From a virus (taxonomy: Duplodnaviria > Caudoviricetes), in IMG/VR virus record IMGVR_UViG_3300010356_002264: a DNA stretch of 64,000 nt; one strand, 5' to 3'. The notes beneath the pieces were generated by a model. The model did not search any database. It was not told the origin of the DNA and saw only the letters and a list, made by a program, of their open reading frames with translations. Below, piece by piece: positions 11,241 through 13,994 of this stretch (position 1 is its first letter; each line of letters starts with the position of its first letter). The translations under genes were made by a program, and so were the position numbers.

Positions 11241-11789
11241 TCACGACAGCGACCCGTCCTGGATCGCCTTCTTCACGATGGGTCCCCAAACGTCGGAGGA
11301 CGCGTTGATGCGGTAGACGGGCAGCCCGTACCCTCCAAGTGCCTCGATGGTGTGGCCCTCACGACCGATCCTCCACAGCGTCTCTTGCCACTCGGGGCGG
11401 AACGGTATCGGGCACATGCGATTCAAGCGGTTGAAGAACAGCGTCTTCGCCTCCGACTCCTCTCCCGCGACCATGAACCAGGACGAGAACGGCGACCACT
11501 GGTGGGTCATGGCGGGGTGGACCATCACGAGGTGAAGCAGGTCGACCCCCGTCGTAGTGGCTATCCGCATCATCCCCGGCTGCACCATTACGGTGTGTCC
11601 ACCGATGTCGAGGAGGCCGTCAACCTTCCGGTTGCCGTCGTGCACCTTGGCCCAGACGGCCCGCACGCTCACGGAGTCCCCAAACAATGACAGCATCGCC
11701 ACCACAGGGTGGTAGCCACTGCCGGGCATCACGCGGTACGAGTCCGCCCAGCAGGTGATCCCCCCGCTGTAGGGCTTTACGACTAGCAT
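11241..11789 (-). CDS. Hypothetical protein upstream of the methylase-helicase
   Basis: ORF with ATG 37 nt after the motif (11826). Confidence 0.75.
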   Translation of the reverse strand: MLVVKPYSGGITCWADSYRVMPGSGYHPVVAMLSLFGDSVSVRAVWAKVHDGNRKVDGLLDIGGHTVMVQPGMMRIATTTGVDLLHLVMVHPAMTHQWSPFSSWFMVAGEESEAKTLFFNRLNRMCPIPFRPEWQETLWRIGREGHTIEALGGYGLPVYRINASSDVWGPIVKKAIQDGSLS

Positions 11790-11933
11790 GCCTCCCTGTC
11801 GCGATGAGGTCGCGGTTCAGAGCTGACGCACTACTCGGCTTCGGATTGTGTGTTTTTTCAGCTCTTTTTTCAGAAAACTATTTGACAGTATGCCGAACAA
11901 GTGGTTACTTCATTCACACGTAGCGAGAACGCC

Positions 11934-12038
11934 ATGAACTCCTTCATCCACATCGAACAGCCAGAACCTACGACGGTCCCCGCGACCGATCGCGTGGACT
12001 CGCTCGATCAGGACCCCGAGGTGATGGCCTCCCGGTAG
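11934..12038 (+). CDS. Putative 34-aa leader peptide of the tRNA operon
   Basis: MNSFIHIEQPEPTTVPATDRVDSLDQDPEVMASR between the promoter motif (11858) and a terminator-like hairpin. Confidence 0.4.
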   Translation: MNSFIHIEQPEPTTVPATDRVDSLDQDPEVMASR

Positions 12039-12064
12039 ACGGTACGCTACATACGCACCGCCAC

Positions 12065-12107
12065 CGAGAGGCCGGGACTTCGAGAGGAGTCCCGGCCTTT
12101 CTCGTTT
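12065..12107 (+). terminator. Terminator/attenuator-like hairpin before the tRNAs
   Basis: AGGCCGGGACTT...GAGTCCCGGCCT followed by TTCTCGTTT. Confidence 0.6.
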
Positions 12108-12111
12108 ATGC

Positions 12112-12187
12112 GGTCCCATCGGCCAATGGTCAAGCCGCCGGCCTCTCAAGTCGGAAATGGCGGGTTCAAGTCCCCCTGGGATCACCA
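12112..12187 (+). tRNA. tRNA-Glu(CTC)
   Basis: Cloverleaf; anticodon arm CCGGC-CT-CTC-AA-GTCGG; GGTTCAAGTCC; encoded CCA. Confidence 0.9.
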
Positions 12188-12188
12188 C

Positions 12189-12259
12189 ACCCTGTTCGTC
12201 CAGCGGCAGGACGCCGGCTTTTCGCTCCGGAAAGGAGGGTTCAACTCCCTCACAGGGTA
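12189..12259 (+). tRNA. tRNA-Glu(TTC), no encoded CCA
   Basis: Acceptor ACCCTGT/ACAGGGT; D-arm GTCC/GGAC; loop TT-TTC-GC; one anticodon-stem mismatch. Confidence 0.8.
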
Positions 12260-12268
12260 CATAATTAT

Positions 12269-12343
12269 GCCTCGTGATGCGACGGGTGTCGCAGTCCGAC
12301 TGTCTATCGGATGAGAGGGGTTCAAGTCCCCTACGAGGCGCCA
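12269..12343 (+). tRNA. tRNA-Asp(GTC)
   Basis: GCCTCGT/ACGAGGC; TCCGA-CT-GTC-TA-TCGGA; CCA. Confidence 0.9.
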
Positions 12344-12363
12344 GTCATGGTATACATGAACCC

Positions 12364-12999
12364 ATGACATTACCGATCGGTCTACGAGAAGAAGCTGTTC
12401 GTCTCCGAGTCGAGGAGCGGCGTTCCAATAAGGAGATATGCACGAAGTTGAAGGTGTCGGCGGGAACCATGAGTTTTTGGCTAAAGGATCATCCGCTGGC
12501 CCCTGAAGAGAAACAAAGCAGGTGGAAGGAGAAGATGGAGGGCGGGGCTAGAAGACCTCGGGGTCCGCAGAAAATAAAAGATGTAGCAGGTCCATCTAAG
12601 CACTATGCGGTAGTGAAGGACTGTGAATTATCTAATTCACATAAGATGGCCATATCTGAGTCTGCTATTCTATTTCGATTAGCTCTACATGGCTACGCTG
12701 TAGCTACTCCTGTATTTGAAGGGACTAAGATTGATTGGCTCGTCAAAGTTCCGACGACAGGTCGGATCATTCAGGTTCAGGTGAAGACGGTTCGCAAGGG
12801 ATCGATCAGTCTTCGTTGTGCGAACGGTCGAGGCAAGCTGAGACGCTACGTGGAGGGTGAGTTTGATGTCATTGTTGGGTATGACCTGTTTTCTGATACG
12901 GCCTACGTGTACCTGGCCCGGGAGGTGATGCACCTGGGCTATGTTGCGGCAGCCTCCCAGGAGGCTGCCGAACGATGGGGTAAACTTCTGGAAGTTTGA
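12364..12999 (+). CDS. Free-standing PD-(D/E)XK homing-type endonuclease with N-terminal HTH, inside the tRNA cluster
   Basis: ISESAIL..L...GY.V..P; IDWLV; IQVQVKT; FDVIVGYD; AT-richer than flanks. Confidence 0.8.
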   Translation: MTLPIGLREEAVRLRVEERRSNKEICTKLKVSAGTMSFWLKDHPLAPEEKQSRWKEKMEGGARRPRGPQKIKDVAGPSKHYAVVKDCELSNSHKMAISESAILFRLALHGYAVATPVFEGTKIDWLVKVPTTGRIIQVQVKTVRKGSISLRCANGRGKLRRYVEGEFDVIVGYDLFSDTAYVYLAREVMHLGYVAAASQEAAERWGKLLEV

Positions 13000-13005
13000 A
13001 TTTCT

Positions 13006-13079
13006 CGGGGTGTGACGCAGCCTGGTAGCGTACTTGCTTTGGAGGCAAGGAGCCGGAGGTTCAAATCCTCTCACCCCGA
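13006..13079 (+). tRNA. tRNA-Pro(TGG), no encoded CCA
   Basis: CGGGGTG/CACCCCG; CTTGC-TT-TGG-AG-GCAAG; GGTTCAAATCC. Confidence 0.9.
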
Positions 13080-13378
13080 CTCAGGAAGAAAAAAGATCGC
13101 GGGATCGATACTTTTCTCAGCTCGGCCCCGTTCAGGGTATACGATAAGACTTCATAAACGGCGATGGCTGCACGCCGAAGCCCAAACACCAAACTCCTTC
13201 GGGAGGGAAGTGGATGGGACAAAGGGGCCACCAAACCTCAAGACCATTCGGGTTTGCTGTCGATCCGGCCCTTCCGCAAGGAGGGTGAAGTGGGCACCCC
13301 CCACAAGACAGCTTCCTGACAAACCCTGAGGTGCCCCATGCGCCACTAAACAGATTGCTCCCCCCTCGGAAGGCTCAT

Positions 13379-13453
13379 ACAAGCGTAGCTCATCAGGTAG
13401 AGCATCGGTCTAACTCACCGAGGGTAGCTGGTTCAACTCCAGTCCTTGATCCA
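13379..13453 (+). tRNA. Atypical tRNA-like element (anticodon AAC, broken acceptor stem)
   Basis: TAGCTC..GGTAGAGC D-arm; TCGGT-CTAACTC-ACCGA; GCTGGTTCAACTCCAGT; ends CCA. Confidence 0.5.
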
Positions 13454-13781
13454 AACGGGCCCCACACTCGGGGAGCAGTTTCACCTTCGTAGGCCAGGTT
13501 CATGACCTGGCCAAACAGGGTCGGTACGCTAACCAAGCGGCTGCGGCTTCCACCGCAGCGATGCCAGCTGGACGCTGGCCCGTCCCCCTAAGACTCCGCC
13601 CTCGGCGGGACCTTACATGCGCGCCGTCGCAAGGCGGCACCTAATCTCCACCAAAACGGGGATACTTGGCTCATACCCAAGCAACGACCATGTGAGGTCA
13701 CCAAAGACGGTCCCGCCTCTCGCGGGGTCTGTCCTCTGACAACCGAATACCAGCTTCTTCTCCCCCTCGGGTCGATCCAAC

Positions 13782-13856
13782 ATGCTTATCGCCCAGTGGT
13801 TGGGCATCTGTCTACGGAACAGACCTCGGCAGGTTCAATTCCTGCTAAGCGTACCA
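13782..13856 (+). tRNA. tRNA-Arg(ACG)
   Basis: ATGCTTA/TAAGCGT; TCTGT-CT-ACG-GA-ACAGA; CCA. Confidence 0.88.
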
Positions 13857-13906
13857 CCAAGGGTCGACACACTCGGGAGGAGATCCCCATCGGCCGCAAG
13901 GCCGGT

Positions 13907-13958
13907 AGCGGCCCGACGGTCTCCCCCCCCGACAAGACCGTCGGGCCGCTTTTCTTTT
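13907..13958 (+). terminator. Intrinsic terminator
   Basis: 16-bp stem AGCGGCCCGACGGTCT/AGACCGTCGGGCCGCT followed by TTTCTTTT. Confidence 0.8.
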
Positions 13959-13994
13959 CAGCTCCAGATTCACGCTGGGTCGCGACGACCCGGC

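What the first reader, a model, noticed from the sequence alone, without database searches (positions are those of the whole stretch)
13354..13883. Repeated RNA clamp enclosing individual tRNAs
Seen twice with different stem sequences. First: ATTGCTCCCC-CCTCGG-AA-GGCTC [AAC tRNA-like] GGGCC-CC-ACACTC-GGGGAGCAGT (13354-13479). Second: TCTTCTCCC-CCTCGG-GTCGATCC [tRNA-Arg] GGGTCGAC-ACACTC-GGGAGGAGA (13756-13883). Outer and inner stems pair in both copies while the internal loop CCUCGG/ACACUC is identical. Inference: a protein-binding or processing signal (excision, ligation/circularisation or packaging) that presents a tRNA as cargo. The window encodes an RNA ligase, a CCA enzyme and an RRM protein that could act on it.
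Basis: partly seen in the sequence, partly recalled or inferred. Interest (0 to 1): 0.72.

Follow-up and report, generated by a model that had tools for sequence, protein, structure and literature searches.

The report
Phage tRNAs clamped by Y-RNA-like handle
Two tRNA-shaped genes of a roughly 428-kb sewage-sludge phage are each gripped by the same two-step stem. That stem marks a widespread RNA family, absent from Rfam 15, which travels with a Ro60-like ring protein in huge phages, so these are probably protein-bound tRNA mimics (a new wiring of Y RNAs) and not plain tRNA genes.

Summary
W1 (13352-13481) and W2 (13756-13883) each enclose a tRNA-like body in an outer helix (12 or 9 bp), a conserved internal loop (CCUCGG / ACACUC) and an inner helix (5 or 8 bp). 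The stem sequences differ between copies and the loops are identical.

The clamp occurs beyond these two copies. The same handle is found five more times in this phage, around circularly permuted tRNA look-alikes. One copy lies 118-150 nt upstream of a 592-aa gene whose predicted fold matches Ro60.

In 40 huge-phage records carrying that gene, a model of the clamped normal-order form finds full-length matches in 38. It finds one in 46 unrelated viral records. A model built only from other phages ranks W1 and W2 first and second in the whole 7.2-Mb bin.

W1 has no proper acceptor stem and cannot decode. W2 is a complete tRNA-Arg(ACG) with CCA.

Best reading: the handle is the docking module of the Ro60-like protein and the tRNA body is the exposed head. 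Binding is inferred, not shown. Excision or circularisation has no support.

Rfam 15 has no family for the handle, and two literature searches found no description. Earlier agents of this scan noted the same kind of element in this phage and in another phage.

The parts
13352..13363 (+). W1 outer helix, 5' strand (AGAUUGCUCCCC)
   Evidence: Pairs with 13470-13481.
13364..13371 (+). W1 5' internal loop, CCUCGGAA
   Evidence: Its first six bases are identical to the W2 loop.
13372..13376 (+). W1 inner helix, 5' strand (GGCUC)
   Evidence: Pairs with 13457-13461.
13377..13385 (+). W1 junction motif AUACAAGCG, the family hallmark (U/C)ACA(A/C/U)GC
   Evidence: ACA and GC of this motif are invariant in the aligned family members. 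The scan that picked the members required the motif.
13385..13444 (+). W1 tRNA-like body: D arm, anticodon arm with loop CUAACUC (U at position 37), and T arm. There is no proper acceptor stem.
   Evidence: Infernal tRNA model, 36 bits, model positions 7-64 only. ARAGORN calls Val-AAC at 13379-13453.
13457..13461 (+). W1 inner helix, 3' strand (GGGCC)
13462..13469 (+). W1 3' internal loop, CCACACUC, ending in the ACUC hallmark
13470..13481 (+). W1 outer helix, 3' strand
13756..13764 (+). W2 outer helix, 5' strand (UCUUCUCCC)
   Evidence: Pairs with 13875-13883.
13765..13770 (+). W2 5' internal loop, CCUCGG
13771..13778 (+). W2 inner helix, 5' strand (GUCGAUCC)
   Evidence: Pairs with 13861-13868.
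13782..13856 (+). W2 body: complete tRNA-Arg(ACG) with a 7-bp acceptor stem, A73 and encoded CCA. The junction motif CAACAUGC overlaps its first four bases.
   Evidence: Infernal tRNA model, 50.8 bits, positions 1-71. ARAGORN. Only 43 of 79 aligned positions match the phage's other tRNA-Arg(ACG).
13861..13868 (+). W2 inner helix, 3' strand (GGGUCGAC)
13869..13874 (+). W2 3' internal loop, ACACUC
13875..13883 (+). W2 outer helix, 3' strand (GGGAGGAGA)
13081..13351 (+). Hairpin-dense spacer without a convincing ORF, between tRNA-Pro and W1
   Evidence: The whole stretch 13081-13960 folds with z = -7.2. No homologue was found.
13482..13755 (+). Hairpin-dense spacer without a convincing ORF, between W1 and W2
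13909..13958 (+). Intrinsic terminator that closes the tRNA and handle-RNA operon
   Evidence: A long G+C-rich hairpin followed by a T-run.
12112..13080 (+). Upstream part of the same operon: tRNA-Glu twice, a tRNA-like element at 12268-12340, a homing-endonuclease ORF, and tRNA-Pro. None of these is clamped.

Best explanation
W1 and W2 are two members of a widespread family of 'handle' RNAs in huge phages. Rfam 15 has no family for the handle.

The handle is built from the leader and trailer of a tRNA-shaped body. It consists of:
- an outer helix;
- an internal loop whose 3' strand ends in ACUC followed by G;
- an inner helix;
- a junction carrying (U/C)ACA(A/C/U)GC on the 5' side and an A/C-rich strand on the 3' side.

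The handle is most likely the docking module of the phage's divergent Ro60-like ring protein (HEAT-repeat ring plus vWA domain). The tRNA or tRNA-like body would be the exposed head that engages tRNA-binding factors, as in Ro60/Y-RNA particles.

In this 'W' wiring the handle sits at the acceptor end of a normal-order tRNA. In the five other copies in this phage it sits at the variable arm of a circularly permuted tRNA look-alike.

Shown here: the fold, the family membership, the Ro60-like fold of the protein, and the linkage within and across genomes. Inferred: that the protein binds the handle, and what the particle does.
For: 1. The fold is real and covaries.
- Each copy folds into the two helices.
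- Between W1 and W2 the stem sequences differ while the loops are identical.
- In 16 W-type members from at least 12 phages, RNAalifold recovers the outer helix (9 bp), the inner helix (5 bp) and the D, anticodon and T arms. Of 28 pairs, 23 show compensatory changes; 97% of cells are paired, against 32-49% when the partners are slid.

2. The handle is shared.
- Seven copies in this phage carry outer helix / CCWCGN / inner helix / NACA[ACU]GC ... [N]CACUC / outer helix. They are W1 and W2, four copies in the C242 tRNA array, and one on C37.
- W- and Y-type copies also agree at positions that my scan did not demand: A after GC, GG after ACUC, and an A/C-rich 3' junction ending in C.

3. A leave-out test is passed. 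Model R2 was built from 14 W-type RNAs of other phages only. Across the 7.2-Mb bin it ranks W1 first (84.9 bits, E = 1e-15) and W2 second (60.2 bits), both full length. The best other match scores 52.4 bits.

4. The candidate partner protein has a Ro60 fold.
- Copy Y5 lies 118-150 nt upstream of a 592-aa gene.
- Its AlphaFold model (pLDDT 84) has Ro60/TROVE structures as its top 12 listed Foldseek PDB matches, aligned over about 540-600 columns. They include 9kop, 9nfa, 1yvp, 9l5y from phage phiLo, and 2nvo (E = 2e-9 to 4e-7).
- C37, which carries the gene, belongs to the same phage, by contig-end overlaps and tetranucleotide distance.

5. Linkage holds across genomes.
- In 56 loci around homologues of the gene, there are 43 handle RNAs against 1 in the reversed-sequence control. 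Of these, 41 lie on the gene's strand; 17 are W-type and 23 are Y-type.
- Model R1 finds full-length W-type matches of at least 70 bits in 38 of 40 whole phage records that carry the gene. Most of these records were not in the seed. The nearest match is usually 1-10 kb from the gene.
- Of 46 unrelated viral records, 1 has such a match.

6. The bacterial context fits. In a bacterial homologue locus the gene follows rtcR, with rtcB-rtcA divergent and handle RNAs in between. This resembles the rsr/Y-RNA/rtcBA operon regulated by RtcR in Salmonella (PMC4201824; PMC7790460).

7. There are precedents (PMC4201824).
- Y RNAs carry the Ro60 site in a stem formed by their 5' and 3' ends.
- YrlA carries a tRNA-like domain.
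- D. radiodurans Yrn1 has a different orientation of its T and D arms and can be modelled with an anticodon arm.
- M. smegmatis YrlA is cut by RNase P and receives CCA in vivo.
Against: - No binding data exist. The link to the protein rests on gene linkage and on fold prediction.
- The 40 phage records are probably related to one another, so genome-level co-occurrence partly reflects shared ancestry.
- In this phage W1 and W2 lie about 144 kb from the Ro60-like gene, not beside it.
- The handle does not match Rfam YrlA (RF02553) or the Deinococcus Y RNA (RF01053) at E <= 1. It carries only a partial likeness (CUCGGAAGG, CUCGGG) to the YrlA motif GNCGAAN0-1G.
- Pfam TROVE does not detect the protein.
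- One 40.5-kb phage record, estimated 99% complete, has a W-type match but no Ro60-like gene.
- W2 and several relatives are complete, high-scoring tRNAs (up to 65 bits). They could simply be released as working tRNAs.
- The family members used for the covariation count were picked by a scan that demands pairing. The high pairing percentages in the two handle helices are therefore partly by construction.
Confidence: 0.6

Rival explanations
1. The clamp is a maturation clamp for real tRNAs. The leader-trailer helices only control or time processing by RNase P and 3' nucleases, or give an RNase III-type entry site as in rRNA precursors. The enclosed tRNA is then released to decode. The protein link is indirect.
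For: - W2 is a complete tRNA-Arg(ACG) with a 7-bp acceptor stem, a canonical anticodon loop and encoded CCA.
- W-type bodies in relatives reach 54-65 bits on the Rfam tRNA model over positions 1-71.
- Three unpaired bases separate the inner helix from position +1 of the tRNA, which leaves room for RNase P.
- M. smegmatis YrlA is cut by RNase P and CCA-tailed in vivo (PMC4201824).
Against: - W1 and several relatives lack an acceptor stem: Infernal aligns only positions 7-64 or 5-66. W1 has U at position 37.
- Half of the ARAGORN-called clamped bodies have A34 anticodons (AAA, AAC, AUG, AUC) that, to my knowledge, bacterial decoding does not use.
- The same handle clamps permuted look-alikes, which cannot give a tRNA by end trimming.
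- The roughly 50 ordinary tRNAs on this phage's contigs have no such clamp.
- The unpaired motifs ACUC and ACANGC are conserved and the helices vary. That fits a recognition site and not a generic double-stranded RNA.
- W2's tRNA matches the phage's other tRNA-Arg(ACG) at only 43 of 79 aligned positions. By my reading of the D loops, W2 has U where the other copy has A at position 20, an arginine identity element from memory.
Confidence: 0.2
2. The clamps are domains of one large structured RNA of about 880 nt (13081-13960). It would work as a single unit and contain two tRNA-like modules.
For: - The whole interval has no convincing ORF and folds far better than shuffles (z = -7.2).
- The spacers are dense with UUCG- and GNRA-capped hairpins.
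- A single terminator follows W2.
Against: - No homologue of the spacers was found in phage records, in 40 related genomes, or in the scan's notes.
- In relatives, W and Y units stand alone or in tandem with spacers of 10-170 nt, so the clamp unit is autonomous.
- The two spacers are not clearly alike.
Confidence: 0.1
3. The clamp is an excision and ligation (circularisation) signal. It would mark sites where the RNA is cut and rejoined by the phage's RNA ligases, in analogy to bulge-helix-bulge processing of permuted or intron-bearing tRNAs.
For: - The phage encodes an Rnl-type RNA ligase.
- The same handle encloses circularly permuted tRNA look-alikes, for which circularisation followed by end-processing could in principle rebuild a tRNA.
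Against: - The loop is a symmetric 6x6 to 8x8 internal loop, not a 3-4-3 bulge-helix-bulge.
- No splicing-endonuclease gene was looked for or found.
- Normal-order W bodies would gain nothing from circularisation.
- Linkage is to a Ro60-like gene, not to ligase genes.
Confidence: 0.05

Closest known systems
YrlA-type bacterial and phage Y RNAs bound by Ro60/Rsr (Rfam RF02553; Chen et al. 2014, PMC4201824; phage phiLo Ro60 with Yrl1 and Yrl2, PMC12135203)
   Same: - A small RNA whose 5' and 3' ends pair into a long stem with a conserved interruption.
- A tRNA-like module at the other end.
- Several different copies per genome.
- Genes that travel with a Ro60-fold ring protein, in bacteria next to rtcR and rtcBA.
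- Found in large phages, inside tRNA clusters.
   Different: - There is no match to RF02553 at E <= 1.
- The conserved motifs are ACUC and (U/C)ACA(A/C/U)GC, not GNCGAAN0-1G or CGAA.
- The protein is invisible to Pfam TROVE.
- The body is a whole tRNA in normal order, including the anticodon arm and (in W2) a true acceptor stem with CCA. In YrlA the acceptor-like stem is closed by a loop.
Deinococcus radiodurans Yrn1 (Rfam RF01053)
   Same: A Y RNA whose T and D arms are oriented differently from YrlA. It can be modelled with an anticodon arm (PMC4201824). As I recall its figure, the Ro60-binding stem formed by the RNA ends takes the place of the acceptor stem, which is the wiring of W1. The text I read does not state this.
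   Different: - There is no match to RF01053 at E <= 1 on W1 or W2.
- Yrn1 has a 6-nt 'anticodon loop' and only a partial D arm (PMC4201824). W2 is a complete cloverleaf with its own acceptor stem inside the handle.
Leader-trailer processing helices of rRNA and polycistronic tRNA precursors (RNase III and RNase P substrates)
   Same: Sequences flanking a stable RNA pair with each other and enclose it.
   Different: - Here the helices vary while two unpaired motifs are conserved across dozens of phages.
- The same clamp encloses permuted, non-tRNA bodies.
- It is linked to one protein gene.
Bulge-helix-bulge motifs of archaeal and Cyanidioschyzon permuted or intron-bearing pre-tRNAs
   Same: A structured signal formed by sequences flanking a tRNA body. 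The same genome also holds permuted tRNA-like genes.
   Different: The loop geometry is not 3-4-3. The host is bacterial and phage. There is no sign of a splicing endonuclease.

Membership tests
Handle-clamped normal-order tRNA-like RNAs of huge phages that encode the Ro60-like protein (W-type; not in Rfam 15) | Leader-trailer outer helix of at least 7 bp, plus an inner helix of 4-10 bp across an internal loop | tested here: met
   W1 has 12 + 5 bp and W2 has 9 + 8 bp.
Handle-clamped normal-order tRNA-like RNAs of huge phages that encode the Ro60-like protein (W-type; not in Rfam 15) | The 3' loop ends in ACUC, followed by G of the outer helix | tested here: met
   Both copies read ACACUC-GGG. 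ACUC is invariant in 16 W-type and 24 Y-type members, although the scan that picked them required it.
Handle-clamped normal-order tRNA-like RNAs of huge phages that encode the Ro60-like protein (W-type; not in Rfam 15) | The junction motif (U/C)ACA(A/C/U)GC directly 3' of the inner helix | tested here: met
   W1 reads AUACAAGC. W2 reads CAACAUGC, the same as copy Y5 beside the Ro60-like gene.
Handle-clamped normal-order tRNA-like RNAs of huge phages that encode the Ro60-like protein (W-type; not in Rfam 15) | Full-length match to a covariance model built without the sequences under test | tested here: met
   With model R2 (14 relatives), W1 scores 84.9 bits and W2 60.2 bits, both over positions 1-129. 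They are the top two matches in 7.2 Mb; the next scores 52.4 bits. The margin for W2 is modest.
Handle-clamped normal-order tRNA-like RNAs of huge phages that encode the Ro60-like protein (W-type; not in Rfam 15) | A Ro60-like gene (HEAT-repeat ring plus vWA) in the same genome | tested here: met
   The gene is at C37:104677-106485 and C37 joins C103. Foldseek matches the model to Ro60 structures.
Handle-clamped normal-order tRNA-like RNAs of huge phages that encode the Ro60-like protein (W-type; not in Rfam 15) | Location within about 10 kb of that gene, on its strand (the usual case in relatives) | tested here: not met
   W1 and W2 are about 144 kb from the gene on the joined contigs. A few relatives also have distant copies, at 20-230 kb.
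YrlA / Y RNA (Rfam RF02553, RF01053) | Match to the Rfam covariance model | tested here: not met
   Neither family matches W1 or W2 at E <= 1. Neither matches the five permuted copies at E <= 0.1.
YrlA / Y RNA (Rfam RF02553, RF01053) | The motif GNCGAAN0-1G (or CGAA) on the 5' strand of the stem | tested here: inconclusive
   W1 reads CUCGGAAGG and W2 reads CUCGGGU. One permuted copy reads CACGAACG. The likeness is only partial (motif from PMC4201824).
YrlA / Y RNA (Rfam RF02553, RF01053) | Bound by Ro60/Rsr | not testable with these tools
   This needs RIP, EMSA or a structure.
Ordinary decoding tRNA (Rfam RF00005) | A full cloverleaf with a 7-bp acceptor stem, U33 and a purine at position 37 | tested here: inconclusive
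   W2 meets this: 50.8 bits over positions 1-71, loop CUACGGA, ACCA at the 3' end. W1 does not: positions 7-64 only, and loop CUAACUC with U37.
Bulge-helix-bulge splicing or circularisation signal | Two 3-nt bulges on opposite strands, separated by a 4-bp helix | tested here: not met
   The loops are symmetric, 6x6 in W2 and 8x8 in W1, with no central 4-bp helix.

The most novel reading that the evidence does not exclude
The handle lets a phage Ro60-like ring hold complete, potentially chargeable tRNAs such as W2 (tRNA-Arg ACG) as a guarded reserve or as bait. The ring would release them through RNase P and 3' trimming, or offer them to host anticodon nucleases, when the host attacks the tRNA pool.
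Probability: 0.15. Interest if true: 0.85.

Novelty: new variant of a known kind. Interest (0 to 1): 0.66.

Why it matters
- Ro60/Y-RNA particles are known from animals, a few bacteria and a few phages. What their tRNA-like heads do is still open.
- Here a divergent Ro60-like protein that Pfam cannot see is linked, in dozens of huge phages, to arrays of RNAs that attach one handle to tRNA bodies in two different wirings. Some of these bodies are apparently intact tRNAs.
- This gives a large natural series of variants for asking what the tRNA head is for and how the ring recognises its RNA.
- It also warns that some 'tRNA genes' counted in huge-phage genomes are probably not decoders.

Tried and rejected
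- **Exact-motif scans.** I scanned IMG/VR, JGI metagenome contigs and GTDB genome contigs for CCUCGG...T-loop...ACACUC and for the relaxed CCUCG...CACUCG. Apart from the copy on C37 (L092), every match failed the stem test and was chance. The 5' loop sequence turned out to be specific to this phage, so the exact motif was the wrong probe.
- **DNA similarity.** The 880-nt region has no match in GenBank phages. In 40 genomes related to the bin, only tRNA fragments matched.
- **Neighbouring proteins.** Two flanking proteins have no close relatives in IMG/VR. In GenBank phages one has no match and the other only distant ones, below 60% identity.
- **Pfam searches for the partner.** TROVE and DUF2828 give nothing on the phage contigs. 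The only canonical rsr gene lies on C179, a contig of different composition that is not part of this phage.
- **Other tRNAs of the bin.** A duplex-energy screen of the flanks of all 116 tRNAs in the bin was too noisy in this G+C-rich DNA to be useful by itself.
- **RNA sequencing runs.** None was listed for this stretch, so expression and RNA ends could not be examined.
- **K-turn or loop-E reading of the internal loop.** I considered this by eye only. No consensus fitted.
Full report
**1. The observation**

W1 (13352-13481):
- a 12-bp outer helix;
- the loops CCUCGGAA and CCACACUC;
- a 5-bp inner helix.

W2 (13756-13883):
- a 9-bp outer helix;
- the loops CCUCGG and ACACUC;
- an 8-bp inner helix.

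The helices differ in sequence between the two copies and the loop cores are identical. Each element, folded alone, gives these helices as its minimum-free-energy structure.

The combined motif occurs twice in the window. It occurred in none of 100 shuffles. It occurs nowhere else in the 7.2-Mb genome bin.

W1 holds a tRNA-like body:
- ARAGORN calls it Val-AAC.
- Infernal aligns only tRNA positions 7-64, at 36 bits.
- The acceptor stem is reduced to a short CAAG/CUUG pairing.
- Position 37 of the anticodon loop is U.

W2 holds a complete tRNA-Arg(ACG) with A73 and CCA, scoring 50.8 bits.

**2. Setting**

The window comes from a huge phage. The evidence:
- Window positions 1-34351 are contig C103 of the bin. 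The rest of the window maps to C98 and C242.
- Contig-end overlaps link C103 to C37, C37 to C128, and C128 to C242.
- C37, C103 and C98 are the three contigs closest to C242 in tetranucleotide use.
- Together these contigs make about 428 kb.

W1 and W2 end a small operon:
- a short ORF followed by a strong terminator (12066-12101);
- tRNA-Glu, twice;
- a tRNA-like element at 12268-12340;
- a low-G+C PD-(D/E)XK endonuclease ORF;
- tRNA-Pro;
- a 270-nt spacer, then W1;
- a 275-nt spacer, then W2;
- a terminator at 13909-13958.

The 880 nt from 13081 to 13960 hold no convincing ORF and fold with z = -7.2.

**3. The clamp recurs in this phage**

A note from an earlier agent of this scan (e1-5459629) mentioned permuted tRNA-like RNAs with a CC(U/A)C / ACUC loop elsewhere in this genome. 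I tested that with my own stem-and-loop scan of the whole bin.

The same architecture occurs four times in the 43-gene tRNA array of C242 and once on C37. The architecture is outer helix of 9-12 bp / CCWCGN / inner helix of 5-8 bp ... [N]CACUC / outer helix. The helix sequences differ in every copy.

In those five copies the T arm comes first, followed by a hairpin-closed acceptor-like stem, the D arm and the anticodon arm. That is a circularly permuted tRNA look-alike.

All seven copies also carry NACA(A/C/U)GC directly after the inner helix. W1 reads AUACAAGC. W2 reads CAACAUGC, identical to the copy on C37.

**4. The candidate partner protein**

The C37 copy lies 118-150 nt upstream of a 592-aa gene. 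Pfam sees only a C-terminal vWA domain in it.

I aligned 32 homologues and predicted the structure (pLDDT 84). The top 12 listed Foldseek PDB matches are all Ro60/TROVE structures, aligned over roughly the full length:
- 9kop and 9l5y, from Thermus phage phiLo;
- 9nfa, 9nep, 9nen and 9nf8;
- 1yvp, 1yvr and 2i91;
- 2nvo, D. radiodurans Rsr.

E-values run from 2e-9 to 4e-7, and TM-scores are about 0.4-0.48.

Pfam TROVE and DUF2828 do not detect a Ro60-like gene on the phage contigs. The only canonical rsr in the bin is on C179, whose composition does not match the phage.

In a bacterial homologue locus (L131) the gene follows rtcR. The rtcB-rtcA pair is divergent, and two handle RNAs lie in the 378-nt gap between rtcR and the gene. 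This resembles the rsr/Y-RNA/rtcBA operon regulated by RtcR in Salmonella (PMC4201824; PMC7790460).

**5. Relatives**

IMG/VR holds 57 loci that encode relatives of the protein. Most lie in records of 130-620 kb.

My scan of 56 of these loci (718 kb) gave the following:
- 43 handle RNAs, against 1 in the reversed sequences.
- About 2 per Mb in the non-phage part of the bin.
- 41 of the 43 lie on the gene's strand.
- 17 are normal-order (W-type) and 23 are permuted (Y-type), often side by side in one array.

ARAGORN or Infernal recognises tRNAs in the W-type bodies. Some score 54-65 bits over positions 1-71. Others align over positions 5-66 only, like W1. Rfam 15 matches these elements only as tRNA and has no family for the handle.

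**6. Structure support and membership**

An alignment of 16 W-type members (A3) gives an RNAalifold consensus of outer helix, inner helix, D arm, anticodon arm and T arm.
- 23 of 28 pairs show compensatory changes.
- 97% of cells are paired, against 32-49% when the partners are slid.
- 0 of 500 shuffles reach the observed values.

One caveat applies. The members were picked by a scan that demands pairing in the two handle helices and demands both motifs. Three results are independent of that choice:
- The tRNA arms, which the scan did not demand, are present and covary.
- Model R1 finds full-length matches of at least 70 bits in 38 of 40 whole phage records carrying the gene. Most of these records are not in the seed, and ordinary tRNAs reach at most 62 bits with partial alignment.
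- Model R2, built from the 14 members of other phages only, ranks W1 (84.9 bits) and W2 (60.2 bits) first and second in the whole bin. Both align full length; the best other match scores 52.4 bits.

The control was 46 unrelated viral records. One of them, a 40.5-kb phage without the gene, has a full-length match of at least 70 bits. A second apparent exception (G086) turned out to carry the gene, 80 nt from its W-type RNA.

Comparing coordinates, the nearest W-type copy usually lies 1-10 kb from the gene, on its strand. A few copies lie 20-230 kb away, as here.

No W-type match was found in the three bacterial loci or on C179.

**7. How it most likely works**

Shown:
- the fold;
- the shared handle;
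- the Ro60-like fold of the linked protein;
- the linkage.

Inferred:
- The handle is the protein's docking site, as the end-to-end stem is in Y RNAs.
- The tRNA body is the exposed head that engages tRNA-binding factors.

In known systems, Y RNA tethers Ro60 to PNPase and gates access to the Ro60 cavity. The YrlA head is modified by tRNA enzymes. M. smegmatis YrlA is cut by RNase P and receives CCA in vivo (PMC4201824). Phage phiLo Ro60 binds two phage Y-like RNAs and, with them, forms a complex with host PNPase (PMC12135203).

W1 has no acceptor stem and has U37, so it can hardly be anything but a mimic.

W2 could be nicked by RNase P and still stay attached through the 17 bp of the handle. 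It could also be released as a working tRNA. I cannot tell which.

W2's tRNA matches the phage's other tRNA-Arg(ACG) at only 43 of 79 aligned positions. By my reading of the D loops, W2 has U where the other copy has A at position 20.

**8. Comparison with what is known, and novelty**

The closest known systems are the Ro60 Y RNAs. YrlA is closest for the tRNA mimicry and the gene context. D. radiodurans Yrn1 is closest for the wiring: its arms are oriented differently from YrlA, and it can be modelled with an anticodon arm (PMC4201824).

Membership in the Rfam Y-RNA families fails, and the conserved motifs differ. The protein is a divergent branch.

Two full-text searches and the papers I read describe no handle-clamped whole tRNAs.

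The scan itself has met this kind of element before:
- Notes e1-5459629 and e1-5459618 describe the permuted copies of this same phage.
- Note e1-5321830 describes clamped tRNAs in another jumbo phage.

I file the finding as a new variant of a known kind.

Noticed in passing
window 12364-12999 (+): A low-G+C ORF (45-55%, against about 66% around it) with a weak, near-threshold match to the PD-(D/E)XK endonuclease family PF11645 (25.6 bits, cut-off 26.1) and weak HTH matches. It sits between a tRNA-like element and tRNA-Pro. It looks like a free-standing homing endonuclease inside the tRNA operon.
   Followed up: partly
window 11935-12101 (+): A short ORF (about 34 codons) is followed by a strong terminator (12066-12101) just upstream of the first tRNA (12112).
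   Followed up: no
window 12268-12340 (+): A tRNA-shaped element that ARAGORN does not call. Its best Rfam match is the tRNA-Sec model, at 37 bits and below threshold. It has an anticodon loop CUGUCUA (GUC) and a long acceptor stem.
   Followed up: no
window 11855, 13955 (and the variant TTTTCTCAGCTC at 13111): The 10-mer TTTTCAGCTC occurs only three times in the 428-kb phage, all on C103. Two copies lie in this operon, each in a T-rich stretch. Its meaning is unknown.
   Followed up: partly
G000 contig C179 (locus L085), 11450-13818: A canonical rsr gene (TROVE plus vWA_Ro60, 577 aa) lies inside a 12-tRNA cluster, with Rfam matches below threshold to Deinococcus Y RNA and YrlA just upstream. 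The contig's composition differs from the phage, so it is a second, classical Ro60/Y-RNA element in the same bin.
   Followed up: partly
L126 7187-14228; L130; L131 7635-11640; L191; L192: The neighbourhood of the Ro60-like gene is largely conserved from phages to bacteria. In most loci a protein of about 310-350 aa, a small protein of 80-95 aa and a ThiF (E1-like) protein follow it. A weak Prok-JAB match appears in L130, L131, L191 and L192 only. A VIT-vWA protein lies upstream in this phage's own locus (L126) and in a 76%-identical relative. This looks like a ubiquitin-like conjugation module riding with the gene.
   Followed up: no
W-type RNAs in L199, L201, L204 and L210, and window W1 and W2: Six of the twelve clamped bodies that ARAGORN calls as tRNAs have A at position 34 (AAA, AAC twice, AUG, AUC, ACG). 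To my knowledge only Arg-ACG among these is a normal bacterial decoder.
   Followed up: no
L202 11889-11981: A 497-kb phage encodes a bacterial-type small SRP RNA (57.7 bits, above threshold) directly after its array of four handle RNAs.
   Followed up: no
window 13081-13351 and 13482-13755: Two spacers of about 270 nt, dense with hairpins that carry UUCG and GCAA loops. One hairpin has a T-loop-like loop (13492-13512) and one has a CAU anticodon-like loop (13665-13683). No homologue was found.
   Followed up: partly
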